Counted from the first letter of the whole stretch, positions 1 to 59,109 are shown. The stretch: DNA of 59,602 nucleotides, filler included, from Stramenopiles sp. TOSAG23-6 (GCA_900128565.1; 10 parts of 10 records of this genome joined end to end with filler, not necessarily neighbours in it), one strand, 5' to 3'. Notes: generated by a model not told the origin, from the letters alone. Numbers and translations: made by a program.

Positions 1-90
1 TATTTCAAAAAAAAAACTAAAATTTGTTAGGTACAAAATTTCGTACGAAAAAATATTCGATTTTTTGTTAAAAAAAAAAATAAAACATAC
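1..90 (-). mobile_element. Introner-like intron, 3'-truncated by the contig end (copies at 11983-12072 and 17962-18051)
   Basis: Minus strand reads GAT|GTATGTTTTATTT...TTTCGTACGAAATTTTGTACCTAAC...TTGAAATA. Confidence 0.85.
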
Positions 91-690
91 ATCATATTCA
101 CTATTTTCAGCAAGTTCTTGCATAATCATTGAAACTAACCATCGACCACATCGTAATGCACCTAATAATGATATTTCGGCGACATTATTCCACACCATAC
201 CAGTCTTCGCATTACCTGTACGTTTGTGCGACTCTAACCATAAAGCTAAAGAGCCATTGGAATCAATTTTGCGTTTTGATTTCTTTTTTTTACCATAATA
301 GTCAGCTAATTGATCATATGAAGAAACCGAATCAAATTTGAACCATTTCTGCCAGGTTGTGAATGTTGTCAAGACAATAAAACCTTGTAACCAACCAGTG
401 TCTTTACAACGAACTAAATAGCCATTAATTGGATCATCAGTATTTAAGCGATCAGCAATGTAGTCTACACAAAGAGGTTTCTCAAAATGCATGGCTCTAG
501 GTTGTCGACGTAATTTACGACGACGTGATGCTTCCGTACAAAGCTCTAACATTTCCGGTATGCATGGGAAGCATTGCTGTCGCGAGGTCACTCGAAGAAG
601 AACTGAATTCTCCAACTTCGCGGTGCAATCTGGAACTTTGTAGAAGTTGTAAATTGCTTCTTTATTTCGATAACTTTTGTTAATAGGCAT
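91..690 (-). CDS. First exon of a conserved protist protein with a putative GNAT-like acetyltransferase region (partial; copies in contigs 3 and 4)
   Basis: Motifs KPLCVDYIADRLNTDDPINGY, GWLQGF..TTFTTW and AEISLLGALRCGRWL resemble a family I recall from stramenopile/haptophyte proteomes. The ORF is interrupted at EYD by the element. Start codon is uncertain. Confidence 0.55.
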
Positions 691-1096
691 TTTCAAAGTT
701 TCGTTATATATACATAATGGGTAAGGTCCCACTTATAAATGGAATCGTAACAACATCCCCATTTTCTATAATGCAAGGATAAATATTTGGAATATTTTTC
801 TGCCTCGATAGAATTTGCAACGACAATATTTTGGATACGATTCGCGGGAATTCGCGGGCTATAGATTCATATACAAATTTTCGTAGTTAAATTCTAATTT
901 CTAATTTATTTGGATATGACAGTTTTGTCCCAGGATTTCGTGGGGGAGTTTTTGCTGAATTTTTAACAGTCCAATCTTTCTCTCTACTACGTAATAAAGA
1001 TACTAAGTTTCTGAGATATCGTTGAATAAATAGATTANATCACACGCGATTACCTTAAGGTTGCGACTGTCAGATTGAATCAGTTGTGCGTGTAGA

Positions 1097-4000
1097 ATGT
1101 CAAGATCTAATATTCTTTCCCCTCGAGCAAATAGCTTACTCAATACAAACAGAACTTCAAGTTTTAGAAGTTCGAATGTGAAACAAAAACCTCTCTCAGC
1201 AGTAGGAGGGAAACTTGTCGTAGCTACAATGTCTGTCGCTCTAGAACGTGCACACAAAGAAATGGCCTTAATGAAAGCACAACTTGAATCTCAAACACGA
1301 AAAGCAAATCGCTTGGAAGAAGAAGTCGAAGCGAATCCTAGCGTTGTCACAAGACTTCGAAAGCAACTGAGAGCCAAGACTGTCGAACTAAATGGACTCT
1401 CTCGAACTCTTAAATCAACAGAACTAGAGGAAGCAGAGCGTCGGAATGAAATAATGAAATATTCATATCGTCTAAAGCAGACTAAAAAAAGTCTTGCTTC
1501 ATTTGAAAAAAAAAGTCAAAGACTTGAATCTCAAAGAAGAAACTTAATTTCAAGAAATTTGCGAAGCATGCTAAAAGGCACCATAGTTCGATGTTTTGAT
1601 GCTTGGAAACGCTGTACAGCAGAGAGTTCTCGTGAAGTGAAAATATTAAGAAAACTTCGTTCACGATTTTCCAAACATACTTGTGCTAGAGTATTCTATG
1701 CTCTACATCGAAAAGTACTAAGGAGAAAAGAGTTATACGACTTGTTATATTATAGGCTATGTGAAGCTAAAACAGCTTGGGTCAGTACTGCATTTAGAAA
1801 ATGGCATAAATTTGCTGATACTGCCACTCGAATAATAAAATTAATAATTAGTAGAATTCGTTCAAAAGAGGAAATGTGGCTTGCAATGGGTTTTCGTACA
1901 TGGTATTTACAATCTTCTGCGATTAAGTTTCATTTAGGAAAAGCTGAAAAACTTCGAAAACTTTTATTTGGTAAAATGGGCCGATCCGTAGCCGATCATT
2001 TAGGACTTGGTACAGGAACTAGATTTAGACAATGGATTTCATATGTAAGTAGACGTAGGCGTGCAAGAAGACATTGTCAAAAATTTGTTAGAGCTTATTA
2101 TCGCGAAAGTTATACATGGGCCTTTCGTAAAATAGAAAACAATTCTAGGGAAATCTCACATAAAAGAAAAAGGATGAAGAAATTAATAGTGAAATGGGAA
2201 TATAAACATTTATGGAGAGGTTTTTCTGGTTGGCTTAATAAGTGTAGAGATATTATAAATAGAAGAGCGTTTGTATTAAAAGTGTTGAAACGAATGACAA
2301 GGTCAAAACTTTCAGTAGGATTTCATACTTGGAATAATCGAAGCATTGATGTAACTAGCCAAAAACAATTTCTTCGAAAAACAATATCACGTATTACACA
2401 TTATAAAACAACTATAGGATTTCAAACATGGTATAAATATGCAAAAGAAGTTGAACGATCTAAAACTCTATTCAAAAAGGTCATGGCTCGTATTGTTAAA
2501 AATAGAATGTCCATTGGATACTATACTTGGAAACATCGTGTTGAAGAATTTAAATATACAAAAAAAATGTTAACTAGGATTGTTACAAGAATAGTAAAAT
2601 TAAGATTAGGCAAAGGATTCTACACGTTTCGCAGTAATGGGGAAGATGCTTTAAAAAAACGTGGAATATTGAAACGTGTAATGTCTCGTTTTACAAAATC
2701 TCATACTTTCAAAGTATTTTATACCTGGAAGAGTCATGCAAAAGATAAACAAAAACGAGAAAAACTGATAAAGCAAATAGTCGGACGTTTGACAAAGGTA
2801 AAGACATTTAAAGGGTTCTCAACGTGGAAACGTAATTTAGAAGATATCAAAAATCAGAAAAAACTTATTCGTAGAATCGTGGCAAGAATAACAAAGTCTA
2901 AAATCTCTAAAGGATTTTTTACATGGAATGATCGTATTGATCAAATTGTACAACAACAATTTGTTCTCGCTAGATTCTTTACACGAATGTGTAATGTTAA
3001 ACTTTCCAAGGGTTTTAAATCATGGAATCATAATGCAGCAGAGGTACATCGTAAAAGAAAAAAATTAAAGAATATTGCAATGCGTATGACGAATGGACGA
3101 TTATGTCGTATATTCTATTGTTGGCAAACTAATGTACGTACAATTGTAGAGACAAAAATATTTTTGAAACGTATTCTCGGAAGAATGGCAAATGCACGGC
3201 TCTCAGTTACATTCAATACATGGAAGAGTAACTTGGATGAAATGTGTAGTCAAAGGAAATTTCTTCGAATTTTAATTGCGCGTATTTGTCTATCTCGATT
3301 ACATCTAGGATTTAATTCATGGAATAACAATTTAATAGAAATGCATCGTGCCCGATTGAAGTTGAAAAATATACTTATACGTATGTCGAATGCAAAGTTA
3401 TCTAGCGCATACCACACATGGAAAACAAATGCTCGTCGAATAGCAAATATTTCAGCAATAATGCAGCGGACAGTAATACGTTTAAAGCAAGCTACTTACT
3501 CCAAGGGCTTTTATAACTGGCGTACTAATGCGGAGGAGAAGTATTTTACACAACAATCCTTATTGGGATTTTTATCTCGCATGTCACAATCTAAATTAAG
3601 AAGAGGATTTAATACTTGGAGTAGTAATGCAGCTGAAATGAGTAAGAGAATAAAATTAGTTCAACGTATTCTATCGCGTATGTCAAACAGACTGATAGCT
3701 AGAGGCTTTTCAGGATGGCGAAGATATAATTATTATGGTCGTCAAATATACAAAGCTTTGCTTTCTATTTCTAGCAAGTGGAGACAAAATAATCTATTAT
3801 CAGCATGGGGTAAGTGGCATAACTTTGCGATTCGTGTACACAATCGTTTACGTAGTATAATGACACGATGGTTTATTGCATTAAAAACAGATGCACTTCG
3901 AAGAGGATTTAGAATATGGGATAGTTATGTAAAGAATCAAGTATGTCGAGGTCGTTTGTTACATCGTTTATTAGATAGATCATTTAGATTCTATCTTCGA

Positions 4001-9067: not shown

Positions 9068-11882
9068 ATGACCTTTCATTACAAGAGCATGAACTCAACA
9101 AATCTCATTTTCGTCGTATTTGCTTTTATGACAGGGCTTTGTCCTGTTATTGGTGCAAGTCATAAGAGAATCATATGGGCTCCTACGGATAAAAAAAAAG
9201 TGGATTTTAAGCAAGAACACCTCAATAAATGGAATAAAGTGAAAAACTTGGCGTCCTTTGCCGTCGATGATGTTTTAGAAGAAGATCAACAAGATGCGCG
9301 TGCCGATGATCAAAGTTCCCCCTGGATTTGCAGACTCGCAGATGCAAACATAACTTATAACGTAAAAAGAAATTTCTCGACGTTAGAGTGGAAATTATTT
9401 CCTATACCTCTAGATTTGGTTTCTTTATTGTCCCCCAATATGATTATTGTATTTAACTGTAATCCTAAAAATAGCAGTGATTTGACGATTACAAGGGTCA
9501 GGAAATCGATTGAAACATGGTATGATGAGGTTCTACAGGAGAGAGATGAAGCTAAGAAATATTCTTTCAAGTATTTTAAATTAAATTTCAAAGCAGCATT
9601 CATATCGGGACTCATTAAATTTTTGAAATGGAGGGTGGTTAATAACGACGAAAGTAATTGGATTGTTGGAACAATTAAAAACATAATATTATGTGCAATA
9701 TCAAGTTTATGTGATCAATTGCAATTTATTTTTAAAACGTTCAACTATCTCTGGGGCAAGTACGCTTTTAAAATTTAATTTATAAAATTTTTGTTTCGTA
9801 CCAAAATGTGTACCTAAGAAAAAATTTGAATTTCAAATATTTTTTCACGATACAGGATCAAGAAAATCTGGAACCGAAAGAAAATTTTGAAGGAGAGAGA
9901 GGAATCTTTTGCTACTTGGTTTTTAGGTGACCCAGTATTGACTGAACATTTAAACCTCGAAGATGTCGAGGAAGAAAATGATACTGGAGATTCTTCATCA
10001 TTTCTTGAATTAGAATCGTCTATTCAAGACACCTTATACACAAAGGAAGCTCAGATGTTGTTTCATGAAAACATGCAAAATGAATTTATTGACAAATTCT
10101 TTCAAGGCATAAAAGATGGTGTAGCTAAAATTGTTGAAGAGCAAAACAAATGGAATGCAAAACCTTCAATTGTAGTATCCCCATCTGAATCCACACTGAG
10201 AACTAAAGATATGAATTTTGGTAGTGAAATGAGATTTCGGTCAAAAACTACACCTGAAAATAGTTTTCGAAAAAGTTTTCGAAAAATCGATAATAAATCA
10301 TTTCAAAAGATTGATCCAAGGAAAAGCCCACTTCAAAAGATTGATACAAGTTCATATTCTCAGCGAGCTGCTACTGTTCACAGTGCAAAATCGAAATCTC
10401 GCTCCTTAATTAAACATTCCGAGGAACACTATGCCAAACAGAAAAAGGAAATAANNNNNNNNNNNNNNNNNNNNNNCAAAAGAGGATATTAAATGTCTTT
10501 GTAAGTCTTCAAAATTGAATTTCGATTTTTTTTTGTACTAAATTTTGTACCTAACAAATTTCGAATTTAAAATATTTTTTCATGATACTTGTGGTGCTAT
10601 GTGTGACAAGAAAGATAAAGTATGCATGCATGATTGCAAACAATTGTTTGGCCTTGGGTATAACATACAAATTCAATATCAGTTGCCAAATGTTTTAAAA
10701 GCTGTGTCAAATGCGTTAATTGTAATTGGTTCAGCAGGTGTAGCAGCAGTGAATATTCAAGAAATAAAAGAAGCGCTTATACCAAAGATTACAATTCATG
10801 TAGGAGCAAGTGTTCAAATGATGTACCAGATGACACAATCTATTATGAAAATTNNNNNNNNNNNNNNNNNNNNNNNNNNNNCATGTTCTCCACGAAAAAC
10901 TTTATAAACTAACTAGATTCAAAGCCTCAGTTGAATCTAACCATTGTTCTGGATTTTCGCATAGAAAAGCAGCAAAGATAATTGAATCGGAAAAACAAAC
11001 AAACTCCATGGTAAAAGATGTGTGCATTTTCATCATGAATTTTAAATTTATTTATTTTTGTACCAAATTTTGCATCTAACAAATTTCAAATATAAAATAT
11101 TGTAACACAGTACATTGGGGGTGATCTTCGAGCTCATCAATCTGTTGGCACTACTACCATTGTAAATGTTGGCGACATTTCCTCTTCAAAATCGCGTGGG
11201 GTGTGTGGTGAAACAGCCTCGAGCTATAAATNNNNNNNNNNNNNNNNNNNNNNNNNNNNNNNNNNNNNNNNNNNNNNNNNNNNNNNNNNNNNNNNNNNNN
11301 NNNNNNNNNNNNNNNNNNNNNNNNNNNNNNNNNNNNNNNNNNNNNNNNNNNNNNNNNNNNNNNNNNNNNNNNNNNNNNNNNNNNNNNNNNNNNNNNNNNG
11401 TGCTTTAAAATCTTTAGGGGGTGCAATATTAAAACTAGGAAAGTCCATCATGATGTGCCTTGGAAAATTATTTTGTTCCATTGTAGGTGCAATAGAACGT
11501 CGTTTAAAAAAGTTCATGAGGATACTCCCCGGATCTTCAGCTGCATCTACTTTTATCGAAACAGGATCTTCCGTAGAACAACACACCCGTCTGAATTCTG
11601 AGCAGCAAGCTCTGATGTACACTTACATTGAGAACAATTTGTGCTTTAAAATCTTTAGGGGGTGCAATATTAAAACTAGGAAAGTCCATCATGATGTGCC
11701 TTGGAAAATTATTTTGTTCCATTGTAGGTGCAATAGAACGTCGTTTAAAAAAGTTCATGAGGATACTCCCCGGATCTTCAGCTGCATCTACTTTTATCGA
11801 AACAGGATCTTCCGTAGAACAACACACCCGTCTGAATTCTGAGCAGCAAGCTCTGATGTACACTTACATTGAGAACAATTTG
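9068..11882 (+). CDS. Multi-exon putative secreted protein of unknown function (gapped, 3'-truncated)
   Basis: Hydrophobic N-terminus (LIFVVFAFMTGLCPVIGA). ORF pieces join in frame across introns 9760-9855, 10501-10590 and about 11020-11110. Confidence 0.55.
9760..9855 (+). mobile_element. Introner-family intron ending in canonical AG
   Basis: AA|GTACGCTTTT...TTTCGTACCAAAATGTGTACCTAAG...TTCACGATAC-AG|; joins WGK-IKKIWN in frame. Confidence 0.75.
10501..10590 (+). mobile_element. Introner-family intron, GT...TT with TT direct repeat
   Basis: TT|GTAAGTC...TTTTGTACCTAAC...CATGATAC-TT|; removal gives KCLCGAMCD, while read-through hits TAA. Confidence 0.75.
11020..11110 (+). mobile_element. Degenerate introner-family intron (boundaries ambiguous)
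   Basis: Core TTTGTACCAAATTTTGCATCTAAC; both 11020-11110 (GT-AG) and 11022-11115 (GT-AT) keep the frame. Confidence 0.55.
11400..11881 (+). repeat. Exact 241-bp tandem duplication next to a gap (probable assembly artefact)
   Basis: 11400-11640 is repeated at 11641-11881; the length is not a multiple of 3. Confidence 0.8.
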
Positions 11883-26508: not shown

Positions 26509-27433
26509 ATGTCTCAATCAAATGATCCTGAAGCTCCTCTCATAACCGACGCTAAATCATCCGATACTACAAAAGTTCAATCGGGTCATGCGCATGGGTA
26601 CGCTTTCCATCGACGTGAGGACAAAATCATGGCGCCACAAATGGGCCAAAAACTCGTCATGGAATTTATTGGAACAATGTTTCTCTCCCTTGCTGCATCG
26701 AATTCAACAACTACTGCATATGGTGTTGGATTAATGCTTGCTGTAATGGTGTACGCAGGTGGACCAATCTCTGGTGGTCATTATAATCCAGCTGTGAGTT
26801 TAGCAGTCATGTTACGATTCCTCGGAACGGAACATGAAGGAACGTTGGAGCAAACTGCTCCATATATGCTCGTTCAATTCATTGGAGCATTTATGGGTTC
26901 TTATTTGGGTAATTCAATGCGAAATGGTGTACGTTTTGTCTATTTGAAATTATTATTTTTTATACGAAATGTTGTACTTAAACAACAACAACAAAAAAAA
27001 TTTAATTTTTTTTTTTTTTTTTTTTTTTTCAAATTTCCTCATGTATAAAATAGATGCAAACATCATAATTTTTAACACATTTAGTAATTTTGTATTATAC
27101 ACAAAATATGTGCTTTTGACTGCTACGGTGAAAAATGTATCACCGAATAGCTATTATGGACTTGCAATGTACGTGATTCATTATGAATTTATAATTTATA
27201 ATTTTTTTTCAAAAAAAAAAAAAAAAAATTACGAATAATTTTTTTTTCATAGTAAATGTTGTACCTAACAAATTTTGTTTTTTTTTTGAAATATTTATTC
27301 AAAAATGCATTGGTGGTACAGTTACAGCATCAGCATTAGCTGGTGGTTCAATATCTGGTGGTGGATATAACCCAGCTTTGGGTGTCGTTCTCCCATTAGT
27401 TGCAGGCTATGTGTATGATTTCATTCATCATAT

Positions 27434-27472
<39 letters not shown>

Positions 27473-35886: not shown

Positions 35887-36866
35887 TTGGAGATCTTTTT
35901 CATCTTGGGTAGTTAATGATGGCAAATCAGATACAAAGGGGTAGGGAATATTTACTCCTTTTCGTTCACCAAGAGGTCCATCATTATTAACAACACAATG
36001 CACTTCACCTCTTGCTTTGTCACATGATACAACATCAAGGCTTATGAGACCATCATCTATGTATTTTGGAAAAATATTTCAAAAAAAAAAAATTAAAATT
36101 GTTAGGTACAAAATTTCGTACGAAAAATAAATTCGAAATTGAAAAAAAAATAAAATATACATAAATATTCTTTGTCCCACATTGACTTCATTCGCAAGAT
36201 TTTTATAGTCTACAAAGACATTTGAAGAATCTCCGTTCTCTTGATATTTTCTATTTGTCGCTAATACTAAACTTTGACCATTTTTAAGTTGAACGACTTT
36301 GGTATCATGTATTTTTGGAAAATATTAAAAAAAAAAATGTTAGGTACGAAATTTCGTATGAAAAAAAAATCGAAATTCGAAATTGAAAACGAATTTAAAA
36401 AAAAAAATGTTAGGTACAAAATTTCGTATGAAAAAAAAATCGAAATTCGAAATTGAAAACGAACATCTGATTTGAAACATCCAGTTCGTATTTCTGGGCC
36501 TTTAGTATCAGCGGCGATAGAACATATATCTTCCCTACTTCCATCTTCAAAGTCAATTGGTCCATTTGACTTACGAATTTTATTGAGAGAACAACGAAGA
36601 TCTTCTATAACTTGAGATTTGTCCTCATGTGAACCATGACTAAAATTAAGTCGAAGGCAATTCATTCCATTCATCAGTAATTCCATTATACTATCTTTAC
36701 TTGAGGTACTGGGACCAACAGTACATATAATTGAAGTCTTGCGTTCCCGTCTGAGTACAAGATTATATTTTAAGGTCGAGTTGTGTGAAATAGAAACCGA
36801 AGCTGATCGGACATTGAATTTCACCGGGGTAAAAATATTTCTAATTCTTCTGGCAAGACAAAGCAT
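35887..36866 (-). CDS. PK: Pyruvate kinase, N-terminal part, with putative mitochondrial transit peptide; exons 36465-36866, 36161-36306, 35887-36058
   Basis: RKTSIICTVGP, RLNFSHGSHE, DTKGPEIRTG, VDYKNL, IFIDDGLISL and LGERKGVNIP, read after removing two non-AG introns. Confidence 0.95.
36059..36160 (-). mobile_element. Introner-family intron, GT...AT (102 nt)
   Basis: TTT AT|GTATATTTT...TTTCGTACGAAATTTTGTACCTAAC...CCAAAATAC-AT|A GAT GAT GGT. Confidence 0.92.
36307..36464 (-). mobile_element. Introner-family intron, GT...AT (158 nt, core duplicated internally)
   Basis: TCA GAT|GTTCGTTTT...(core x2)...CAAAAATAC-AT|GAT ACC AAA GTC. Confidence 0.9.
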
Positions 36867-37253: not shown

Positions 37254-38766
37254 ATGACGGATTCAGGCTTTGAGGGTACCACTTCAGCACCTGCCAAAAC
37301 GAATATACCAAAACTCGATGTTGTTGACGTCAACATTAATAACAACAAAGACACAACTCCAACACTCTACAAGTTAGCGCCACTCTTGTGGTCAGAGATA
37401 AAATTACGCCTCAAACCACCTGAAAAGGCAGAAATTAAACGAATTCTAGGGAGTGATAAAATTCGCAGTAATAAAGATTTACACGCTGAAGCTCGAAATC
37501 TATTAGAGATTTTACAAGACTTTCGAAAGCAAAATAATTTAGACAAAAAAAAACTTTCACGGAGAAAACTTCCTCCAAAACCTGCTGGTGAAGAGTTACT
37601 TCGTCGACAAATAATGTTGTTGGTGGATAATTTACACCAAAATCAGCAAGATCTGAGAAATGTGGATAATTTTCATGCTTCCAAATCGAATAATTTTATA
37701 TCGTTACAAACTAGAGAAAAAGATATTTTAAATTATGTAGTTTCTGCAGATGAGCGTTTCTCGGAAACTCTTCATAGTAGTCCTCAAAAGACAAAACAAT
37801 CACATCATCGTTTAAATTTGCATGAAATGCCTTTTGTACAGCGGCCGCATAGCGCAAATGATGAGCTCTTTTTGCGACGCAAAAACAGGAAATCAAAATA
37901 TTCAAATCTACGTCAGAGAGACTCGCTAGGTGATATTTTTTTAAATCAAAAACATGAAAACCGTGAAAAACATAAAGATCGTTTATTATTATCATCCATC
38001 CATCAAAATACACCAAAACATAGTGCACGAAGTGCTCCTGGTATCATGACTGCTGGTGCCTTACTCGGTCCTATGTACGTTTTCATCATCAATTTCAAAT
38101 TTATTTATTTTTTTATAAAAATTTTGTACCTAACAAAAACAATTTGAAAATATTTTCCTAAAATACATGCAGAACAATTTAAATATAGAACGCATAGAAG
38201 CTGTAGCAGAAGCTTTAAGAGGGGCACTGGAGGAAGAAAGTAATCGGCTAGAAAGAGATATTGAGTATATAAGTATGTTATTAGAAGAAGAATCTAATTT
38301 GCAATCTAGTTTTATTGTTGAAACGAAACAAGCACATCCACCAAGTCTTATTGAACTTCGCACTTTGGAGAATAAGTTGCGACATAAATGGTTAAAATCT
38401 GATGACGTCATTAAAAATGAAAATAAATGCCTAAAATCCAATAAAGTTGGTACATCTAGTACACTATTTCAGACACCTTCAGAATTGAATAGATTTTATA
38501 ATAGTAATAATAGTATAGTTAAAGAAACAAATGAAAAAAATGAAAAAAATGAAAAAGGCAGTGAAGAAATAGAAAAAGAAGTTGGGGGTAAGAATACTCA
38601 AAAGAAGGAAGGCCATGTACGTTTTCATCATACATTTTAATCTTCTTTCATAGAAAATTTCGTACCTAACAATTGTTTTTAACCAATTTCTAATTTTAAA
38701 TATTTCTTCACAATAAATGCATCGCGATTTCGTAATTCCATTCTTGAAGCGAAATATATGTCTTGA
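37254..38766 (+). CDS. CCDC24-like coiled-coil protein; exons 37254-38074, 38169-38616, 38719-38766
   Basis: LWSEIK...EIKRILG...LHAEA..L..IL and LNIERIEAVAEALRGALEEE..LERDI...LEEE...PSLIEL resemble the two CCDC24 blocks as I recall them; they join in frame via a GT...AT intron. Confidence 0.75.
38075..38168 (+). mobile_element. Introner-family intron, GT...AT (94 nt)
   Basis: CCT AT|GTACGTTTT...TTTGTACCTAAC...CTAAAATAC-AT|G CAG AAC; using the CAG 4 nt downstream gives a stop within 4 codons. Confidence 0.88.
38617..38718 (+). mobile_element. Introner-family intron, GT...AT (3' end could instead be 38722)
   Basis: CAT|GTACGTTTT...TTTCGTACCTAAC...TTCACAATAA-AT|GCA TCG; no AG nearby. Confidence 0.7.
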
Positions 38767-41700: not shown

Positions 41701-41909
41701 GTATGTTTTATTTTTTTTCAAATTCGATTTTTTTTCGTACGAAATTTTGTACNNNNNNNNNNNNNNNNNNNNNNNNNNNNNNNNNNNNNNNNNNNNTTAA
41801 TTAATTAANNNNNNNNNNNNNNNNNNNNNNNNNNNNNNNNNNNNNNNNNNNNAGGTACGAAATTTCGTATGAAAAAAAAAATTAAATTAGAAATTCATAT
41901 AAAACATAC

Positions 41910-47692: not shown

Positions 47693-47841
47693 ATTTGATT
47701 TTCGATTTACTNNNNNNNNNNNNNNNNNNNNNNNNNNNNNNNNNNNNNNNNNNNNTTAATTAATTAANNNNNNNNNNNNNNNNNNNNNNNNNNNNNNNNN
47801 NNNNNNNNNNNTTTTTTTTGAAATATTTTTCCAAAATACAA

Positions 47842-48645: not shown

Positions 48646-48672
48646 AAATTCACTTCAGATAGGCTTAAAGGT

Positions 48673-50508
48673 TTGCTGTCAAGTCTTGGAGATCTAACGG
48701 AAGAACTCAATAAATTAGATGAACCGAAATGGGGTATTGCAAAAAACGAAATTGAACTTCTCCATCCTGATGTTGACAATAGTATACACAGGGGATACGG
48801 CTTTGGTTTGGTACCTGAAGGTTTCCAACAGCAATTTCAATATCCCAGAGCCTCAATGGCACCAAAAGGAAAACCTCCTTGGCGTCATGTTGGTTCTAAT
48901 TCTCTAAGAGCATCAGGAGTGCATAAGTCAGTGTAGGTGACCCTAACCCTAAGCCTAATCATGAATTTTTAATTTTTTTTTCTTTCGAAATTCCGTACTT
49001 CACATTTCTTTTTCGCAAAGAACAATTCATGCCTAACGATTTTTACTATGTACAATACAACATTTTTCACAAAACATAAGTGTCTCGCTCTCTCGTGAAG
49101 GTTTCAGTCAAGACTCGGAGTCTACTTATGGGAAAAAAAAAACTGGTTTTCATTCGCAGTATAAATCTTCAAGGGACATGGAAAACAATTTATTATGGTA
49201 TCAAAATGAAATTCGGAGATTAAAAATAAAGGAAATGAAAGTTGATGCTGATATTGCACAACAAAAAGATTTAATTCTATCGTATAGAAAACAACATCGA
49301 GCATCATACAAGGTAGCTAAAACAATATTAAGAAAATTTTCAGATATTTATTGGTTAAATTTGTCCGAAATACCAAAAGAAATACCGAAAAAAAAGTCGA
49401 TATTTACGATGAAAATCAGCAATACAACTCAAAATGTAAATGATGAAAATGTTTTCCAAGCATTTACTGGTAATATTGAAACAGAATTAGAGACGGTTAT
49501 ATCAATGTTACGGTTACATGTATGTTTGATATGAATTTCTAATTTAATTTTTTTTTCATACNNNNNNNNNNNNNNNNNNNNNNNNNNNNNNNNNNNNNNN
49601 NNNNNNNNNNNNNNNNNNNNNNNNNNNNNNNNNNNNNNNNNNNNNNNNNNNNNNNNNNNNNNNNNNNNNNNNNNNNNNNNNNNNTATACTATAATTGGCA
49701 GAAGTTCTGTGGAACAAACCGGAAATGAGGAGGAAAGAGGAGATGAATTCATCAATAATTTATTTAATACTTTAAAAAGTGAAAAAAGTTTTGGTATTTC
49801 GTGTAACCCTACTCAATCCGTTATTCGGTTGCTTTGTGATGGAACACCACACGAAATACTTTCAAGTGCTTTTCGATATGTCTGTATGAGTAACGGTAGT
49901 GATGGAGAAAGTCGTTTACGATATTTCCAATTCCATGAATTTATGGAGACTTTTATAAAAACTATTTTTGTGATATCTCCAAAATGTAAGGAAATATATA
50001 CAAAAAGGGCACAAAGTGCTGCCGATTTAGCCAATATAGCTACAACTATGATGTTACACTCTTCAGATCGCTCAGCAACTCAAGACGTGTTTATAAAGTG
50101 GTTTATGTCAAAGTTTTCGTGTATTTTTGTACACCCAAAAGGCATTTCAAGTAGTTATTCAAGTGAAATAAGTGTTACGAAAACACTGCAACCTAACCCT
50201 AACCCTAATTCAATTCCTAAAAAAAACAATTCGAACTCTGTTGATATCAAGGAAATGAATAATGATAATAAGTTAAAATAAAGGGAACATGTCCAATCAC
50301 AGGTAAGGATTATTGGTATAACGAGAAAACTGAGGAAAGTGTATATGAAGACCCTAACCCTAACCCAAATAAGCCGAAAATGTCCATGAAAAAAAAACTT
50401 GCGCAAAGTGTTGATATAAAATCAGAAGACTCAGTTGAATTAGCTGGGCCAATAGCTAAAGAAGACGACAGATTTAATTTCTTCCCACCAACTCCAAATG
50501 ATGCATAG
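48673..50508 (+). CDS. Multi-exon unknown protein (gapped); WW-like segment in a shifted frame near the end
   Basis: ORF pieces 48673-48932, about 49078-49519 and 49685-50281 are separated by element-like introns; GTCPITGKDYWYNEKTEESVYEDP follows at about 50284-50355. Confidence 0.45.
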
Positions 50509-52463: not shown

Positions 52464-53863
52464 GAACGTTTTATTTTTTTTTACAAAAAAATCGAATTTG
52501 AAAAAAAATAAAACATACATTTGACAACTTTTTGAGCAAGTTTGACTGTTATTGCGGCACCATCCTCGCATACTGCGTCCATGTCTGAAACAAGCTTTTC
52601 CATCTTATTTTCCATATCCTCTACATTATGCTTCATCTTTCGAATGGTGTCCGTCGCAGCTATGAACTTGCTGTAATTTTCGTGCACTAGCATCTTCATG
52701 TCACTATCGATAGTTTTAATCTCTCGGACAAATCTGCACATAAATTCACTTCAGATAGGCTTAAAGGTTTGCTGTCAAGTCTTGGAGATCTAACGGAAGA
52801 ACTCAATAAATTAGATGAACCGAAATGGGGTATTGCAAAAAACGAAATTGAACTTCTCCATCCTGATGTTGACAATAGTATACACAGGGGATACGGCTTT
52901 GGTTTGGTACCTGAAGGTTTCCAACAGCAATTTCAATATCCCAGAGCCTCAATGGCACCAAAAGGAAAACCTCCTTGGCGTCATGTTGGTTCTAATTCTC
53001 TAAGAGCATCAGGAGTGCATAAGTCAGTGTAGGTGACCCTAACCCTAAGCCTAATCATGAATTTTTAATTTTTTTTTCTTTCGAAATTCCGTACTTCACA
53101 TTTCTTTTTCGCAAAGAACAATTCATGCCTAACGATTTTTACTATGTACAATACAACATTTTTCACAAAACATAAGTGTCTCGCTCTCTCGTGAAGGTTT
53201 CAGTCAAGACTCGGAGTCTACTTATGGGAAAAAAAAAACTGGTTTTCATTCGCAGTATAAATCTTCAAGGGACATGGAAAACAATTTATTATGGTATCAA
53301 AATGAAATTCGGAGATTAAAAATAAAGGAAATGAAAGTTGATGCTGATATTGCACAACAAAAAGATTTAATTCTATCGTATAGAAAACAACATCGAGCAT
53401 CATACAAGGTAGCTAAAACAATATTAAGAAAATTTTCAGATATTTATTGGTTAAATTTGTCCGAAATACCAAAAGAAATACCGAAAAAAAAGTCGATATT
53501 TACGATGAAAATCAGCAATACAACTCAAAATGTAAATGATGAAAATGTTTTCCAAGCATTTACTGGTAATATTGAAACAGAATTAGAGACGGTTATATCA
53601 ATGTTACGGTTACATGTATGTTTGATATGAATTTCTAATTTAATTTTTTTTTCATACNNNNNNNNNNNNNNNNNNNNNNNNNNNNNNNNNNNNNNNNNNN
53701 NTTAATTAATTAANNNNNNNNNNNNNNNNNNNNNNNNNNNNNNNNNNNNNNNNNNNNTAAATTTGTTTTTTGGTTAGGTACAAAATTTCGTATGAAAAAA
53801 AATCATTAGGTAAAGGAATTTCGTATGAAAAAAAAAAAAAAAAAAAATTAAAAAATTTTTTAC

Positions 53864-53895
<32 letters not shown>

Positions 53896-53910
53896 TTTTT
53901 CACAACACAT

Positions 53911-54118: not shown

Positions 54119-56609
54119 TTATTGGTTATAGAAATTATATGTATCTATCATTAAATCTCCAAACGCAATACACTCATATACATTTATCATCGCGGTTGTA
54201 CCGTCATCAAAAAAACCCTCATCAAAAAAATGTACTTTACTCAAAATTTCTAAGTTAGTGTTCGATTCAATATAAGTCTCTTCTTGAAGATAACCATCGA
54301 TTATTCTATGATGACTCATAATGATAGCGTTACGCCAAGGCTTTTTATCAGTTCGATTAGGGTTAGGGTTACGGTGTAGGGTTCTATCAAATTGTTTGGA
54401 ATGTAGTAAATGAATTTTGAGTCCAATTTGGGAAATTGCTTTTGTGGACGAATAAAATGGATTTGTATTTTTTTCAATTATACCAAAATCTAATAAATAT
54501 TGTTTAAAACAATCTAGTTTATGTAATAGCATTGTAACACTTGTTTTTCTCTCCGTTTCAGCAAGTCTACGATATAGTTTATCATACATTGTGAGAAAAT
54601 ATATAATTTTTTTTTCTTTTTTAGTAGAATTTTCATTAGGTACGAAATTGTATACGAAAAAAATAAAAATAAAAATAAAAAACATACATGAACGCTATTT
54701 GCACTTTCTGAGTGTAAACCGTGATTTTTTGCTAAAAGTATCCACATAAATGCTTCAATATCATTCTGATTGGCATGAATAATTGCAAGAAGGTACATAT
54801 AATGTGAACAATATTTTTAGAAAAAAAAATCATTAGGTAAAGGAATTTCGTATGAAAAAAAAAAAAAAAAAAATATTCATTTAAAAAAAATACATGGCTT
54901 TGGTATTACCTAATTGAGCTGCTTGCTGAGCTATTTTTATACCTCGTATTCGATCTCTACTTGGATCGCTAGGGTTGTGGATTTCGATTATACTAAGGTT
55001 AGAATAATATTGTTGCTGGCCATTAGGGTTAGGGTTAGAATTTTGAAGTTCTTGTTGTGTAGACCTTCTCTCAATTCTTTGTGGTGATAAAAGCAAATAT
55101 TGTGAAAAAATATTTCAATTTTTTTTTTCTTTTTCAATCATTAGGGTTAAGTTTTTGTTTTAGTAACGTGTAGGGTTAGGGTTAGGCTCTGAAAACGTAC
55201 AAAGACGCCGCATTAAACATTGCTCTGTCATCTCCTTTTTGAGCAGCAAATGTTGTGAAAAATATTTAAAAAAAAAACTGGTTAGGTACAAAACTTTGTA
55301 TAAAAAACTAAAAAAAAAAAAACTAAAAAAAAAAAAACTAAAAAAAAAATAAATTCGAAATTGAAATTGAAAAGTATACGTTCAAACCAACGGATAGCTT
55401 CATCATCATTTGGATAAACACCTCTACCTTCTCTAAAACTACAACCCTGTATTTTGAAAAAAAATTGAAAAAAAAAAAAAAATTGTGAGATTTTGAAAAA
55501 AAATTGAAAAAAAATTAATTTTTTGTGAGGAATGAAATTTCGTATGAAAAACGTTAGGTATGAATGATTAGGTACAAAATTCTCTATATAAAAAAAAATG
55601 AAAATCAGTTGGATAACATACAAGAGCATATTCAGCTGTACAAATTGCTATGAGTTCACTTGTAATGATGTTAGAATATACTGTTTTTTTAGANATCATT
55701 GAGTTAGGGTTAGGGTTGAGTGTTTCTATTTCTTTTGTTTCTTTTGAATTATTTTCATTTTGAACCCCCTGTTGGCTTTGAACCAGTCCCAACCATGATT
55801 CCATGTCAATAGTTTCATCAGCACTCTTTTTTTTTGTTTCTTTAGGGTTAGGGTTAGGGTTAATAGTTTCATCAGCACTCTTTTTTTTTGTTTCTTTGGA
55901 ATTATTTTTATTTTCAACCATATTCAAAAAACTTTCATCAACATCAACCACACTATGACCCCATTGAAAAATTCCAGGGTTAGGGTTAGGGTTAGTCGTA
56001 TGCATATGATCAAGTTTTTGGAAATTGTTTTCTTGGTTTTTCATAAAAGAATGATTTAGAAGTTTTATATTATGAAAATTCTTTTGTCTTTTTTGATTAC
56101 GTAAGTATTGTGAAAAAATATTTCAAAAAAAATTCTAAAATTTTTTTGTTAGGTACGAAATTTTTTTACGAAAAAAAACCAAAAAAAAAAAATTAAATTA
56201 GAAATTCATATAAAACATACAAGTAATGCATTCGACGAACAAGATTTGACTGCTGCGAAAGAAACTTTTCTTGTATATGTTTGTGTAGTCCAACTGTACG
56301 TCGAAACAAGGCCGTGGCGGCACGGTCATTTTTCTGGAAACCTCCCTCTCCAAAGTAATGATTGAATGCACACATAACCAAAGCAGATGCGTTGTTTGTT
56401 CTTGCAGATCGTAAAATTGTTGATTGTATTGCTTTGTTTCTGCGATCGACTCCAAAGAATCGTGCAGCTGACCACAAATCATCCGTATCGTAGATAAACT
56501 GTCTCAATTCTTTGCAAGTTGAGGCCAATTGGCAGAGAGAGATGACGTGAGACGAAAATAAAAGGCATTCACGTAACAATTCAGTTGGTAAATTAAGAAT
56601 AGTTGTCAT
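54119..56609 (-). CDS. F-box + Sel1-like repeat protein, 7 exons (56221-56609, 55622-56102, 55380-55446, 55201-55249, 54894-55094, 54688-54796, 54119-54583)
   Basis: ILNLPTELL...LCQLASTCKELR F-box. Sel1 motifs AEYALGCSFREGRGV..DDEAIRWF, AAQKGDDRAMFN and AAQLGNTKAMYLLA assemble in one frame after removing six element introns. Confidence 0.85.
54584..54687 (-). mobile_element. Introner-family intron, GT...AT
   Basis: GTT CAT|GTATGTTTT...TTTCGTACCTAAT...CACAATGT-AT|GAT AAA. Confidence 0.82.
54797..54893 (-). mobile_element. Introner-family intron, GT...AT
   Basis: GCC AT|GTATTTT...CATACGAAATTCCTTTACCTAAT...CACATTAT-AT|G TAC CTT. Confidence 0.82.
55095..55200 (-). mobile_element. Introner-family intron, GT...TT, core replaced by CCCTAA repeats
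   Basis: TCT TT|GTACGTTTT CAGAG CCTAACCCTAACCCTA...TTGAAATATTTTTTCACAATAT-TT|G CTT. Confidence 0.75.
55250..55379 (-). mobile_element. Introner-family intron, non-AG end (register uncertain by 2 nt)
   Basis: GAA C|GTATACTTTT...TTTGTACCTAAC...TTCACAAC-AT|TT GCT GCT. Confidence 0.72.
55447..55621 (-). mobile_element. Introner-family intron ending in AG
   Basis: GCT CTT|GTATGTTAT...TTTGTACCTAAT...CAAAATAC-AG|GGT TGT. Confidence 0.82.
56103..56220 (-). mobile_element. Introner-family intron, GT...TT
   Basis: TAC TT|GTATGTTTT...TTTCGTACCTAAC...TTCACAATAC-TT|A CGT. Confidence 0.82.
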
Positions 56610-57879: not shown

Positions 57880-58072
57880 GTATGTTTTATTTTATTTTTT
57901 TTTTTTTTTCGGTAAAAAAAAAATCGAATTTTTTTTTTCGTACGAAATTTTGTACCTAACAATTTTTTTTGAATTTTTTTTGAAATATTTTTTGAAATAT
58001 TTTTTTTCGTACGAAATTCCGTACCTAACAATTTTTTTTAGATTTTTTTTGAAATATTTTTCCAAAATATAT
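57880..58072 (+). mobile_element. Composite element with two cores (probable chimeric join)
   Basis: GA|GTATGTTTT, two CGTACGAAATT..GTACCTAAC cores, ending CCAAAATAT-AT; the flanks differ in phase and protein identity. Confidence 0.75.
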
Positions 58073-58946
58073 AAAACTTGGCTCTCCGACGCTTTGGAGA
58101 AATCCCAAGGACGGAAAAACCAAAACATGGAAAAAACAACACGAAATCCAAAACATCAAAAAAATCTATCTGAAAAAGAAGAAAATGTTTTACAAAAAAA
58201 AAATAAACAATTTGAAAATATTTCAAATCGTTTCATCAATACAAAAATTCATCAATCTCAGAATACAAAAAATACAAAAAAAATTAAATCGAACATTGTC
58301 AAGAAAAATGTATCTTTTTATTTTTTTCAATTTTTTATCTAATTTTTTTTTTCGTACGAAATTCCGTACCTAACAAATTTAAAAATTTTTTTTTTTACAA
58401 TACATAAAGAGATTGAAAGTATATTTGAATTGACTGAATTACAAAAAGAATACAAAAAAAAATTTGGAAATATTTCAAATCGTTTTCGTAATAATAAAAA
58501 GTGGTTAAAAAATGCTTTACAGAAGAGCAAACAAGAAAATATAAAACATAAAATTCAATCAAACATCTCAAAAAAACATCGATTGCAGGACGTTCGACAA
58601 CGATGTCAAATATGGAAATTTTCCATTCAACATGTATGTTTTATTTTTTGAAATTTTTTTTCGTACGAAATATTGTACCTAACGAATATTCAATATTTTT
58701 TTTTTGAAATTTTTTTTTTGAAATTTTTTTTTCGTACGAAATATTGTACCTAACGAATATTAAAAAAATATATATTGTTTCACAAAATATCAAACACGAA
58801 AACGACAAAAAACGAATGAAACACGAATTGGGATTTCAAAGATTATTGAAGATTGTGTGTTGGATGCGAAAAGTGTTGACTATCTCAAACAAAAAAACAT
58901 TGAAATGATTGAATGGATAAATCTACATTTCACAAATGAAAATTAA
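58073..58946 (+). CDS. Lysine-rich unknown protein, last three exons (58073-58309, 58406-58633, 58791-58946)
   Basis: The frame is maintained across GT...AT introns 58310-58405 and 58634-58790; internal protein repeat KF.NISNRF / WL..AL.KS. Confidence 0.6.
58310..58405 (+). mobile_element. Introner-family intron, GT...AT
   Basis: AAA AAT|GTATCTTTT...TTCGTACGAAATTCCGTACCTAAC...ACAATAC-AT|AAA GAG. Confidence 0.8.
58634..58790 (+). mobile_element. Introner-family intron, GT...AT, duplicated core
   Basis: CAA CAT|GTATGTTTT...(core x2)...CACAAAAT-AT|CAA ACA; no AG for about 50 nt downstream. Confidence 0.8.
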
Positions 58947-59109
58947 AATTGAATTCAAAGTTGAAAAAAAATATAAAATTGGATTTTTTTTTGTTAGGTA
59001 CAAAATTTACTATGAAAAAAAAAATGAAAAAAAAAAAAACCTAATTGAAATCATTGAAGTATTATATATAAAAACAAAGTGAATTATATATTTTTAAACA
59101 GTAATTTGA

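What the first reader, a model, noticed from the sequence alone, without database searches (positions are those of the whole stretch)
1..59020. Introner-like family whose introns end in a copy of the upstream exon dinucleotide instead of AG
Seen: more than 25 copies or fragments of a 90-190 nt element with a GTAYGTTTT start, a T-tract, a palindromic TTTCGTACGAAA, TTTGTACCTAAC and a TTGAAATATTTTTCCAAAATAC-NN end. All complete copies are sense to the host gene on either strand. In complete copies NN usually equals the last two exon bases: AT/AT at 27169, 36160, 36464, 38075, 38617, 47146, 54687, 54893, 57487, 58310 and 58634, and TT/TT at 10501, 55200 and 56220. The ends GTAT(G)TTT/AAAATAC form a short inverted repeat. 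Known: introners derived from DNA transposons carry TIRs and target-site duplications (Micromonas, Aureococcus), and abundant non-canonical introns occur in Amoebophrya, euglenids and Fritillaria. Inference: this is a MITE-like element with a 2-bp TSD that supplies a U2-like donor and a branch-like CTAAC but no AG, so the organism must define 3' splice sites without AG. I do not recognise this family or rule from a described lineage.
Basis: partly seen in the sequence, partly recalled or inferred. Interest (0 to 1): 0.95.

Follow-up and report, generated by a model that had tools for sequence, protein, structure and literature searches.

The report
Repeated introns that lack AG ends
An uncultured stramenopile carries a multi-copy family of short introns that start with a normal GT donor but mostly end in AT or TT instead of AG, so its splicing machinery seems to pick the 3' cut site by position rather than by the usual AG signal.

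Summary
The window is ten unrelated ~5.85-kb contigs of an AT-rich stramenopile joined by linkers. It holds 21 complete copies, one assembly-chimeric copy, 8 truncated copies and 3 fragments of a 90-193 nt element. All 21 complete copies lie sense in coding frames. They start with GT, carry a CTAAY branch-like box 29-52 nt (one: 107) before the end, and stop two bases after a conserved ..AAATAC block. Those last two bases are AT (15), TT (3) or AG (3). They equal the last two exon bases in 15 of 21 copies (permutation P about 1e-4).

Removing exactly this unit restores the frames. It gives a gapless VGQRIFIDDGLISL in pyruvate kinase. It also reproduces a 262-aa protein (P0138) encoded uninterrupted on a 917-nt Logan contig, most likely a cDNA. 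In that gene only GT..AT, GT..AG and GT..AT share one register across three family introns.

The best reading is an introner-like family cut by the major spliceosome at a position-defined 3' site that does not need AG. The origin as a MITE with a 2-bp target duplication is plausible but unproven.

No RNA reads could be laid. A public gene model (P0134) mis-splices these introns, and I found no description in print.

The parts
9760..9855 (+). complete copy, 96 nt, GTACGC..CGATAC-AG; upstream exon dinucleotide AA; canonical GT-AG member
   Evidence: joins open frames of 248 and 199 codons; table
10501..10590 (+). complete copy, 90 nt, TT|GTAAGT..TGATAC-TT
   Evidence: the upstream frame cannot be tested because an N gap lies 24 nt upstream
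11020..11115 (+). complete copy, 96 nt, AT|GTGTGC..CAGTAC-AT; the frames prefer an AG created 5 nt upstream (11110)
   Evidence: fixed site gives only 11/15 open codons; AG at -5 gives 46/40
26929..27109 (+). assembly-chimeric intron: the 5' part of one family intron fused to the 3' part of the next; a 108-nt exon (P0138 residues 141-176) is missing
   Evidence: tblastn of P0138; sequence
27169..27310 (+). complete copy, 142 nt, AT|GTACGT..AAATGC-AT, in the MIP gene
   Evidence: only 4 registers of this 142-nt deletion reproduce P0138 and none ends in AG; open frames 73/77 codons, no in-frame AG within -40..+60
27413..27598 (+). complete copy, 186 nt, GT|GTATGA..CTATAT-AG; GT-AG member in the MIP gene
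   Evidence: P0138 junction GYV|SWGK; only the registers GT..AG or TA..GA fit
27682..27859 (+). complete copy (holds a 69-N gap), AC|GTTTGT..CAATAC-AT, last MIP intron
   Evidence: P0138 junction FVQR|GRSY*; registers GT..AT, TT..TG, TT..GT only
36059..36160 (-). complete copy, 102 nt, AT|GTATAT..AAATAC-AT, pyruvate kinase intron 2
   Evidence: removal gives VGQRIFIDDGLISL, gapless against P0122; AG at +2 breaks the frame
36307..36464 (-). complete copy with two tandem cores, 158 nt, AT|GTTCGT..AAATAC-AT, pyruvate kinase intron 1
   Evidence: joins frames of 145 and 75 codons; alignment
38075..38168 (+). complete copy, 94 nt, AT/AT, in a CCDC24-like gene
   Evidence: frames 276/156 codons; Pfam
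38617..38722 (+). complete copy, 106 nt, AT|GTACGT..AAATGC-AT
   Evidence: frames 161/41 codons
47055..47146 (-). complete copy, 92 nt, AT|GTATGT..AAATAC-AT, in a MATE transporter gene
   Evidence: frames 188/430 codons; Pfam
54584..54687 (-). complete copy, 104 nt, AT|GTATGT..CAATGT-AT
   Evidence: frames 43/154 codons
54797..54893 (-). complete copy, 97 nt, AT|GTATTT..CATTAT-AT
   Evidence: frames 73/93 codons, no in-frame AG within -40..+60
55096..55200 (-). complete copy, 105 nt, TT|GTACGT..ACAATA-TT
   Evidence: frames 60/70 codons, no in-frame AG alternative
55250..55379 (-). complete copy, 130 nt, AC|GTATAC..CACAAC-AT; 3' register uncertain
   Evidence: the flanking exons are short, so two in-frame readings remain
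55447..55621 (-). complete copy, 175 nt, TT|GTATGT..AAATAC-AG; GT-AG member
   Evidence: joins AEYAL|GCSFREGRGV in phase 0
56103..56220 (-). complete copy, 118 nt, TT|GTATGT..CAATAC-TT; an internal AG 13 nt after the CTAAC box is skipped
   Evidence: frames 140/135 codons
57487..57592 (+). complete copy, 106 nt, AT/AT; an in-frame AG 3 nt downstream cannot be excluded
   Evidence: frames 148/249 codons
57880..58072 (+). copy with two cores, about 193 nt, GA|GTATGT..AAATAT-AT; 3' end not resolved
   Evidence: two downstream frames are open
58310..58405 (+). complete copy, 96 nt, AT/AT; an in-frame AG 6 nt downstream cannot be excluded
58634..58790 (+). copy with two cores, 157 nt, AT|GTATGT..CAAAAT-AT
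   Evidence: frames 97/51 codons
1..90 (-). 5' part of a copy cut by the contig end, AT|GTATGTTTT (the same DNA recurs at 11983-12072 and 17962-18051)
29765..29818 (-). 3' part at a contig end, ..AAAATAC-AT|AAAG
29919..29978 (+). 3' part at a contig start, ..AAAATAC-GT|ACTG
41701..41752 (+). 5' part at a contig end, AT|GTATGTTTT
41853..41909 (-). 5' part at a contig start, AT|GTATGTTTT
47812..47841 (+). 3' part at a contig start, ..AAAATAC-AA|ATCTC, before a UCH exon (duplicate at 51908-51937)
53616..53657 (+). 5' part at a contig end, AT|GTATGTTTG
53758..53910 (+). 3' part at a contig start, ending ..CACAACAC-AT|GTAGG; holds two family cores in antisense orientation
28211..28250 (-). core-only fragment without the family ends
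58964..59024 (-). degenerate fragment downstream of the + strand gene and antisense to it
48957..49040 (+). degenerate fragment (duplicate at 53053-53136)

Best explanation
This is an introner-like family of short spliceosomal introns in an AT-rich, intron-poor stramenopile. Each copy supplies a strong U1/U6-type donor (GTAYGT), a CTAAC branch box with a T-rich tract, and a conserved 3' block (..TTGAAATATTTTTCCAAAATAC or ..TTTTTCACAATAC).

The intron is cut out from the G of GT to exactly two bases beyond that block. Those two bases may be AT, TT or AG. The 3' splice site is therefore set by position or context and not by an AG.

The two terminal bases are usually a copy of the last two exon bases. 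This is what a 2-bp target-site duplication made at DNA insertion would leave, so removing 'element + one repeat copy' restores the original coding sequence.

Shown here:
- The family, its anatomy and its sense-only orientation.
- Frame restoration by removing this unit.
- Agreement with pyruvate kinase homologues and with an uninterrupted copy of the MIP coding sequence.

Inferred:
- Removal happens in RNA, by the major spliceosome.
- The branch point is the A of CTAAC.
- The 3' site is positioned either by pairing of the AAAAUAC(AU) end with the GUAUGUUUU start, or by a factor that reads the 3' block.
- The family spreads as a non-autonomous DNA transposon.
For: 1. Family and anatomy. 21 of 21 complete copies begin with GT, are sense to their host frames, and are 72-86% A+T. 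A CTAAY box lies 29-52 nt from the end in 20 of 21. Motif counts are far above chance.

2. Frames. Cutting at the fixed site joins flanking frames of at least 25 codons on both sides in 16 of 21 copies, where chance gives one in three. One more joins 24/54 codons, two are settled by P0138, one cannot be tested (N gap) and one fails. Lengths show no multiple-of-three bias.

3. Pyruvate kinase. Removing 36160-36059 and 36464-36307 gives ..VGQRIFIDDGLISL.., identical and gapless against P0122. The alignment is continuous against 4 of 4 homologues examined, of the 12 found. The AG 2 nt downstream breaks the frame, and the in-frame AG 18 nt downstream would delete 6 conserved residues.

4. MIP gene. 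P0138 (262 aa) matches exon 1 at 139 of 140 residues and the later exons at 86 of 86. It comes from Logan, from a single contig of 917 nt, which has no room for introns. An exhaustive boundary scan finds that only 4 of 4,800 pairs reproduce it for intron 27169-27310, and none ends in AG. For 27413-27598, 2 of 5,000 pairs fit (GT..AG or TA..GA). For 27682-27859, 3 of 3,000 fit (GT..AT, TT..TG, TT..GT). GT at the 5' end is the only register common to all three.

5. Independent copy. A copy on a metagenome contig (L001) has the same form, AT|GTATGTTTT..CACAATAC-AT|G, 104 nt. Removing it extends the frame 46 codons to a stop.

6. Repeat at the ends. The upstream dinucleotide equals the terminal dinucleotide in 15 of 21, P = 9.5e-5. 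AT goes with AT 12 times and TT with TT 3 times, with no cross cases. All 4 distinct 5'-only copies also follow AT.

7. Homologues. Pyruvate kinases at 56-64% identity are given as whole proteins of 535-556 aa, which suggests they lack these introns. This last point is inferred.
Against: - No RNA reads were examined.
- Whether the 917-nt contig behind P0138 comes from RNA is not known. It could be an intron-free allele in DNA.
- 6 of 21 copies break the 'copy of the upstream dinucleotide' rule. In two of the three AG copies, two substitutions would be needed to derive AG from a duplicated target.
- Copy 11020-11115 is out of frame at the fixed site and seems to use an AG 5 nt upstream.
- For 57487 and 58310, in-frame AGs lie 3 and 6 nt downstream and cannot be excluded.
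- End pairing is weak. The terminal helix appears in the minimum-energy fold of 3 of 8 copies, and z-scores are -0.65 to -2.60. The first four bases pair with a 2-nt overhang in 10 of 21. Other even registers pair about as well, and there is no covariation.
- The inverted repeat is only 4-9 nt and coincides with splice signals.
- No transposase was seen.
Confidence: 0.72

Rival explanations
1. The true boundaries lie two bases to the left (AT..AC in most copies). These would then be AT-AC introns removed by the minor (U12) spliceosome, or by the major one as a U2-type AT-AC class.
For: The 2-bp repeat leaves the register open in 15 of 21 copies, and 12 of them read AT..[AGT][CTA] when shifted. 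A stramenopile, Blastocystis, is reported to have 253 minor introns, 77% of them AT-AC (PMC10639083, passages read).
Against: - For intron 27413-27598, P0138 allows only GT..AG or TA..GA, so the shifted register is excluded in a family member.
- TT/TT copies would read TT..AC. The shifted 3' ends would be AC, GC, GT, AT or AA.
- The start is GTAYGT, not the RTATCC that I recall as the U12 donor consensus.
- The CTAAY box lies 29-52 nt from the end, against the 10-20 nt that I recall for U12 branch sites.
- No U11, U12, U4atac or U6atac gene could be sought, because no genome is held. Rfam found nothing in the window.
Confidence: 0.08
2. The copies are ordinary introns of an intron-poor organism that look alike because its splicing signals are long and rigid. 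They would not be a mobile family, and the matching dinucleotides would reflect a preferred exon context (AT|GT) rather than a target-site duplication.
For: Every intron found in the window belongs to the family and no unrelated intron was seen. The conserved blocks coincide with the donor, the branch region and the 3' end. The inverted repeat is very short. No transposase was seen.
Against: - Similarity extends through stretches that are not splice signals, and includes internal tandem duplications of the core at 36464, 57880 and 58634.
- 9 of 20 contig ends fall inside a copy, as expected of a high-copy repeat.
- TT ends go with TT exons in 3 of 3 cases and AT with AT in 12 of 12 (Fisher P = 0.0022). 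A single preferred context does not explain this.
- Fragments and antisense cores occur outside coding frames.
- Pyruvate kinase homologues appear uninterrupted (inferred).
Confidence: 0.1
3. The elements are removed from DNA, not RNA (precise excision like ciliate internal eliminated sequences). Alternatively they are absent from the expressed gene copies, and the uninterrupted P0138 contig is DNA.
For: Precise removal of 'element + one copy of a 2-bp repeat' is also what transposon-derived DNA excision gives. The library type of the P0138 contig is unknown.
Against: - Donor and branch consensus and strict sense orientation in 21 of 21 copies are not needed for DNA excision.
- No programmed DNA elimination is known to me in stramenopiles (recalled).
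- The 917-nt contig holds the whole 789-nt coding sequence with about 128 nt to spare. That is expected of a transcript and is a coincidence for a random genomic piece (inference).
Confidence: 0.04
4. The insertions are not removed precisely. The host genes are broken, or they use nearby AG acceptors with small deletions or insertions. A related possibility is that AT or TT is an assembly error for AG.
For: In-frame AGs lie 3-6 nt downstream in 57487 and 58310. Copy 11020 seems to use an AG 5 nt upstream. The assembly is poor, with N gaps, duplicated contigs and one collapsed exon.
Against: - Pyruvate kinase and the MIP gene need the exact fixed-site junctions.
- 27169, 54893 and 55200 have no in-frame AG within -40..+60.
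- The same non-AG ends recur in 18 of 21 copies and on the independent contig L001.
- At least 10 different genes would have to be broken.
Confidence: 0.04

Closest known systems
Introner elements of Micromonas pusilla and Aureococcus anophagefferens (MITE-like DNA transposons that create introns)
   Same: A multi-copy short element sits in coding exons. It has short terminal inverted repeats and a short target-site duplication. The element brings one splice site, and the other junction falls at the duplicated target, so splicing restores the original mRNA. Source: review PMC11282704, passages and the Fig. 2 legend read. The original Nature 2016 paper is recalled, not read.
   Different: In those algae the co-opted 3' site is AG, the termini are canonical and the duplication is 3 nt or more. 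Here the repeat is 2 nt, and the junction is AT or TT in 18 of 21 copies.
Non-canonical, MITE-derived introns of the larvacean Fritillaria borealis
   Same: Most introns are species-specific, carry inverted repeats and target duplications, and lack GT-AG. The 3' end is formed from the duplicated exon sequence, and they are spliced by a modified major spliceosome. Sources: PMC11282704 passages; abstract of bioRxiv 10.1101/2025.08.15.670264.
   Different: Fritillaria introns are mostly AG-AC or AG-AT, so both ends are non-canonical, and U2AF subunits are duplicated there. Here the donor (GTAYGT) and the branch box are textbook and only the 3' dinucleotide is free. U2AF could not be examined.
Introner elements and non-canonical introns of Amoebophrya (Syndiniales)
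   Same: Repeated introns have direct repeats that overlap the exon/intron borders, so the borders are ambiguous, and inverted repeats that can pair the two intron ends (PMC7789003, passages read).
   Different: Amoebophrya has 3-5 nt direct repeats, 8-20 nt inverted repeats and no consistent terminal dinucleotides at either end, and U1 was not detected. Here there is one family, a 2-nt repeat, an invariant GT, and end pairing that is weak.
Nonconventional introns of euglenids (and non-canonical introns of diplonemids)
   Same: Junctions are non-canonical, often with short repeats at the borders. The intron ends are brought together by pairing, and an origin from MITEs has been suggested (PMC11282704 passages; PMC12501133 and PMC12621601 seen only in search listings).
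   Different: Euglenid nonconventional introns lack a polypyrimidine tract and a canonical donor, and they may not use the standard pathway. The present family keeps the donor, the branch box and the T tract.
AT-AC introns (U12-type and the rare U2-type), including the AT-AC-rich minor introns of Blastocystis
   Same: They are introns without AG at the 3' end in an otherwise normal splicing system. In the shifted register, 12 copies would read AT..AC-like.
   Different: The donor and branch motifs and the branch-to-end distance do not fit the U12 type. One family member is fixed as GT-AG by P0138.

Membership tests
Introner elements (transposon-derived spliceosomal introns) | Many sequence-similar introns at unrelated positions in unrelated genes | tested here: met
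   21 complete, 1 chimeric and 8 truncated copies in at least 10 genes of about 45 kb of unique sequence, plus one copy on metagenome contig L001
Introner elements (transposon-derived spliceosomal introns) | Target-site duplication flanking the element | tested here: met
   A 2-nt direct repeat in 15 of 21 copies; permutation P = 9.5e-5; AT/TT association Fisher P = 0.0022. 6 of 21 do not show it.
Introner elements (transposon-derived spliceosomal introns) | Terminal inverted repeats | tested here: inconclusive
   GTAT..ATAC pairs 4 of 4 bases in 10 of 21 copies with a 2-nt overhang. Other even registers pair about as well, and the repeat overlaps the splice signals.
Introner elements (transposon-derived spliceosomal introns) | Removed from RNA by the spliceosome at the element borders | tested here: inconclusive
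   Frame restoration, pyruvate kinase homology and the uninterrupted P0138 on a 917-nt contig all fit. No RNA reads could be laid.
Introner elements (transposon-derived spliceosomal introns) | Canonical GT/GC-AG termini, as in the described Micromonas and Aureococcus families | tested here: not met
   The 3' dinucleotide is AT in 15, TT in 3 and AG in 3 of 21 copies
Introner elements (transposon-derived spliceosomal introns) | A cognate autonomous transposon or evidence of recent mobility (empty sites) | not testable with these tools
   No genome is held. No transposase, RT or integrase Pfam hit in 26 ORF pieces of the window. One metagenome scan gave a single locus.
U12-type (minor) introns | Donor RTATCC and branch box TCCTTRAC 10-20 nt from the 3' end (consensus recalled) | tested here: not met
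   Donors are GTATGT (6), GTACGT (4) and others. The CTAAY box lies 29-52 nt from the end in 20 of 21 copies.
U12-type (minor) introns | Minor snRNAs (U11, U12, U4atac, U6atac) present in the genome | not testable with these tools
   No genome; Rfam found 0 matches in the window
Fritillaria-type non-canonical introns | Non-GT donor (AG-AC or AG-AT) with a TAC target duplication | tested here: not met
   All 21 copies start with GT; the repeat is AT or TT
Euglenid-type nonconventional or Amoebophrya-type introns | A stable pairing of the two intron ends that defines the junctions | tested here: inconclusive
   The terminal helix appears in the minimum-energy fold of 3 of 8 copies; z-scores are -0.65 to -2.60; no covariation
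Ciliate-type internal eliminated sequences (DNA excision) | The interrupted form is present only in germline DNA and the joined form is present in somatic DNA | not testable with these tools

The most novel reading that the evidence does not exclude
In this stramenopile lineage almost every intron would be a recent insertion of one mobile family. Its major spliceosome would no longer read the 3' dinucleotide at all. After a normal first step at GUAYGU and CUAAC, it would cut two bases beyond a conserved intron-terminal block, perhaps held in place by pairing with the intron's own 5' end. Any 2-bp target duplication would then serve as an acceptor, and the element could invade exons at almost any site without harm.
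Probability: 0.45. Interest if true: 0.88.

Novelty: new variant of a known kind. Interest (0 to 1): 0.78.

Why it matters
If RNA data confirm it, this is a clean natural case in which the donor and branch signals stay textbook while the AG rule at the 3' splice site is dropped. The effect is seen in one repeated element whose copies differ only in the last two bases (AT, TT, AG). That makes 3' site choice directly testable with minigenes and a spliceosome inventory.

It would also add a stramenopile lineage to the few (Fritillaria, Amoebophrya, euglenids) in which transposon-like introns go together with relaxed splice rules.

It shows how an introner can spread without needing an AG in its target.

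It matters in practice too. A public gene model of the same gene (P0134) forces GT-AG and yields a wrong pyruvate kinase. The repeats break and collapse the assembly. Surveys that start from annotated canonical introns would miss the family; see the methods passage of PMC12130899.

Tried and rejected
- RNA evidence. The look-up of sequencing runs (after a busy answer) listed 15 runs. Seven RNA runs held 5-12% of the sampled words of 55700-59300. None was laid, so these shares are evidence of nothing.
No whole genome is held.
- Near-identical transcripts of pyruvate kinase were not found. The 'longer' search gave 12 hits at 39-64% identity. The 'near' search gave 4 hits, the best being the public gene model P0134.
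- MATE junction by solved structures. Exon 1 gave 0 hits, and exon 2 aligned only from residue 157 on, so the junction was not tested.
- Element pattern in collections: 1 locus in metagenome contigs, 0 in viral contigs, 0 in genome contigs.
- Rfam: 0 matches in the window.
- RNA folds were not clearly better than shuffles. The pairing-register count was not decisive.
- Open-frame length alone does not separate the fixed site from in-frame AGs in 57487, 58310 and 57880, or where exons are short (55379).
- My first boundaries were corrected after P0138. The 27413 donor had been placed at 27434, and the end of the chimeric intron at 27107.
- Literature searches that found no description of this family. 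The main texts of PMC5778133 and PMC12614181 have no passage on splice sites. Their supplements could not be seen and might hold gene-structure tables.

Full report
WHAT THE WINDOW IS. The 59,602 bases are ten separate contigs of 5,845-5,892 nt, sorted by length and joined by nine N44-TTAATTAATTAA-N44 linkers. Contig 11983-17861 is identical to 17962-23840 and to the first 5,879 nt of contig 1. Scaffold 47812-53657 begins and ends with the same 1,750 nt. G+C is 27-40% per 3 kb. The genes are eukaryotic: TPR plus tubulin-tyrosine ligase, ankyrin-RING, WDR55, M20 peptidase, MATE, pyruvate kinase, a MIP channel and F-box. The best named relatives of WDR55 are oomycetes at 47% identity. A source's name for the public model of the pyruvate kinase gene contains 'MAST32', which suggests a marine stramenopile (MAST) lineage.

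TTTCGTACGAAA occurs 22 times against 0.30 expected, and TTTTTCCAAAATAC 9 times against 0.27. A profile built from nine copies finds 27 hits at E <= 1e-5. After removing duplicates I count 21 complete copies, one assembly-chimeric copy, 8 copies cut by contig ends or gaps, and 3 fragments. Nine of 20 contig ends lie inside a copy, so the family breaks the assembly.

ANATOMY.
- Complete copies are 90-193 nt and 72-86% A+T. Three of them (36464, 57880, 58634) carry the core twice.
- All 21 start with GT: GTATGT in 6, GTACGT in 4, and single variants in the rest.
- A CTAAY box lies 29-52 nt before the end in 20 of 21 copies.
- The 3' block ends ..AAATAC, ..CAATAC or a one-base variant, followed by two more bases: AT (15), TT (3) or AG (3).
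- All 21 are sense to the flanking open frames.
- I found no intron in the window that is not a family member. Several long genes have no intron at all.

ARE THEY REMOVED, AND WHERE? Four lines of evidence bear on this.
1. Frames. Cutting from the G of GT to two bases past the block joins flanking frames of at least 25 codons in 16 of 21 copies. One more joins 24/54 codons. One cannot be tested because of an N gap. One (11020) fails and fits an AG 5 nt upstream instead. Chance would give one in three.
2. Pyruvate kinase. Removing 36160-36059 (102 nt) and 36464-36307 (158 nt) yields ..VGQRIFIDDGLISL.., identical and gapless against homologue P0122. The alignment is continuous against the four homologues I aligned, of the 12 found. 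The AG 2 nt downstream breaks the frame, and the in-frame AG 18 nt downstream would delete IDDGLI.
3. The MIP gene. A search with exon 1 found P0138, 262 aa. It matches exon 1 at 139 of 140 residues and the later exons at 86 of 86. It comes from Logan, from one contig of 917 nt. That contig can hold the 789-nt coding sequence but none of the introns. The contig brackets the coding sequence so tightly that I take it to be a cDNA, but its library type is unknown.
   - I scanned all boundary pairs around three introns.
   - For 27169-27310, 4 of 4,800 pairs reproduce P0138. They are the four registers of one 142-nt deletion: AA..TG, AT..GC, TG..CA and GT..AT.
   - For 27413-27598, 2 of 5,000 pairs fit: GT..AG and TA..GA.
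   - For 27682-27859, 3 of 3,000 pairs fit: GT..AT, TT..TG and TT..GT.
   - No register of the first or third intron ends in AG. GT is the only 5' reading common to all three.
   - P0138 also shows that the window lost a 108-nt exon, because two family introns were collapsed in assembly (26929-27109).
4. An independent contig. Metagenome contig L001 carries one more copy, AT|GTATGTTTT..CACAATAC-AT|G, 104 nt. Removing it extends the frame 46 codons to a stop, against at most 30 for any AG tried.

THE RULE. The last two bases equal the last two exon bases in 15 of 21 copies. The permutation mean is 9.14 and P = 9.5e-5. AT goes with AT 12 times and TT with TT 3 times, with no cross cases (Fisher P = 0.0022). 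The four distinct 5'-only copies all follow AT. The four distinct 3'-only copies end in AT, GT, AA and AT. The exceptions are AA/AG (9760), GT/AG (27413), TT/AG (55621), AC/AT (27682), and the uncertain pair AC/AT (55379) and GA/AT (57880). So 'cut two bases after the block' fits every resolved copy. 'A copy of the upstream dinucleotide' describes how most copies look, as a 2-bp target duplication would. The AG copies look like later change at an unconstrained or favoured position. That is an inference, and in two of the three it needs two substitutions.

MECHANISM. I commit to splicing by the major spliceosome. U1 and U6 would read GUAYGU, U2 would read the CUAAC box, and the T tract follows. 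The second step would take place at a 3' site fixed by position. What fixes it is open.
- One option is pairing. The AAAAUAC(AU) end can pair with the GUAUGUUUU start. With a 2-nt overhang the first four bases pair in 10 of 21 copies. With no overhang, 6.4 of 9 positions pair on average.
- But other even registers do about as well and nothing covaries. The folds are not clearly better than shuffles.
- A protein that reads the 3' block, such as a changed U2AF as in Fritillaria (abstract), is equally possible.
- Spread as a non-autonomous DNA transposon is suggested by the 2-bp repeat and the short inverted ends. No transposase was seen in 26 ORF pieces, and the genome could not be searched.

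RIVALS.
- A shifted AT..AC register, by the minor or the major spliceosome. It is weakened by intron 27413-27598, by the donor and branch motifs, and by the long branch-to-end distance. Blastocystis shows that AT-AC-rich intron sets exist in stramenopiles.
- 'Rigid ordinary introns, not a mobile family'. It is weakened by similarity outside the signals, by internal duplications, by broken contig ends and by the AT/TT association.
- DNA-level excision or intron-free alleles. These cannot be excluded without knowing the library behind P0138.
- Broken genes, AG use or assembly error. These do not fit pyruvate kinase, the MIP gene or L001.

COMPARISON AND NOVELTY. The logic is that of the Micromonas and Aureococcus introners: the element brings one splice site and the other junction falls at the target duplication (review passages). 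There, however, the co-opted site is AG. Fritillaria, Amoebophrya and euglenids show transposon-like introns with non-canonical ends, but they lack the invariant GT donor and the single simple family seen here. Seven literature searches found no account of this family. Two genome papers on such stramenopiles have no passage on splice sites in their main text, and their supplements were not visible. The public gene model P0134 forces GT-AG, reads into the intron (..RIFMYILFFFQFRIYFS..) and loses IDDGLIS. A large introner survey discards families with mainly non-canonical sites unless transcripts support them (methods passage). I rate this a new variant of a known kind.

LIMITS. No RNA reads were examined. 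The sample is one window plus one contig. Several junctions rest on frames alone.

Noticed in passing
window 48941-48952, 50197-50208, 50352-50363, 53037-53048, 54357-54368, 55023-55034, 55704-55715, 55842-55859, 55980-55991, 57763-57774; L001 about 2270-2330: There are telomere-like (CCCTAA)2-3 blocks of 13-21 nt. In 10 of 10 cases they read CCCTAA on the coding strand. Six of them (the last six listed) lie inside long open frames, coding PNPN or LTLT. They occur only in the last two contigs. L001 has CCCTAA and TTAGGG runs just after its stop codon. Their origin is unexplained.
   Followed up: partly
window 55805-55900: The (TTAGGG)3 block at 55842-55859 is flanked by a direct duplication of about 36 nt of coding sequence (..AATAGTTTCATCAGCACTCTTTTTTTTTGTTTCTTT..). 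It looks like an insertion with a long target duplication, or like a repair scar.
   Followed up: no
window 1-23840 and 47812-53657: Assembly redundancy. One contig is present three times with 0 mismatches over 5,879 nt. One scaffold begins and ends with the same 1,750 nt, at an offset of exactly 4,096.
   Followed up: yes
window 26929-27109: The MIP gene lacks a 108-nt exon (residues 141-176 of P0138), because two family introns were merged in assembly at a T run.
   Followed up: yes
window 35886-36899 (-): The public gene model P0134 of the pyruvate kinase gene uses only GT-AG introns. It removes a piece of true exon (SNGPIDFEDGSR), reads into an intron and loses IDDGLIS.
   Followed up: yes
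window 53758-53910 (+): This intron tail has a normal sense 3' block but holds two family cores in antisense orientation. It may be a nested or rearranged insertion.
   Followed up: no
window 1079-5944 (+), also 13061-17917 and 19040-23896: An uninterrupted 1,621-codon frame has no Pfam match.
   Followed up: no
L001 2385-2405 (-): A 21-nt stretch GTAAGTTTAGCAAAAATACTT inside the last exon looks like a minimal donor plus 3' block of the family. It is in frame, so it may simply be coding.
   Followed up: no
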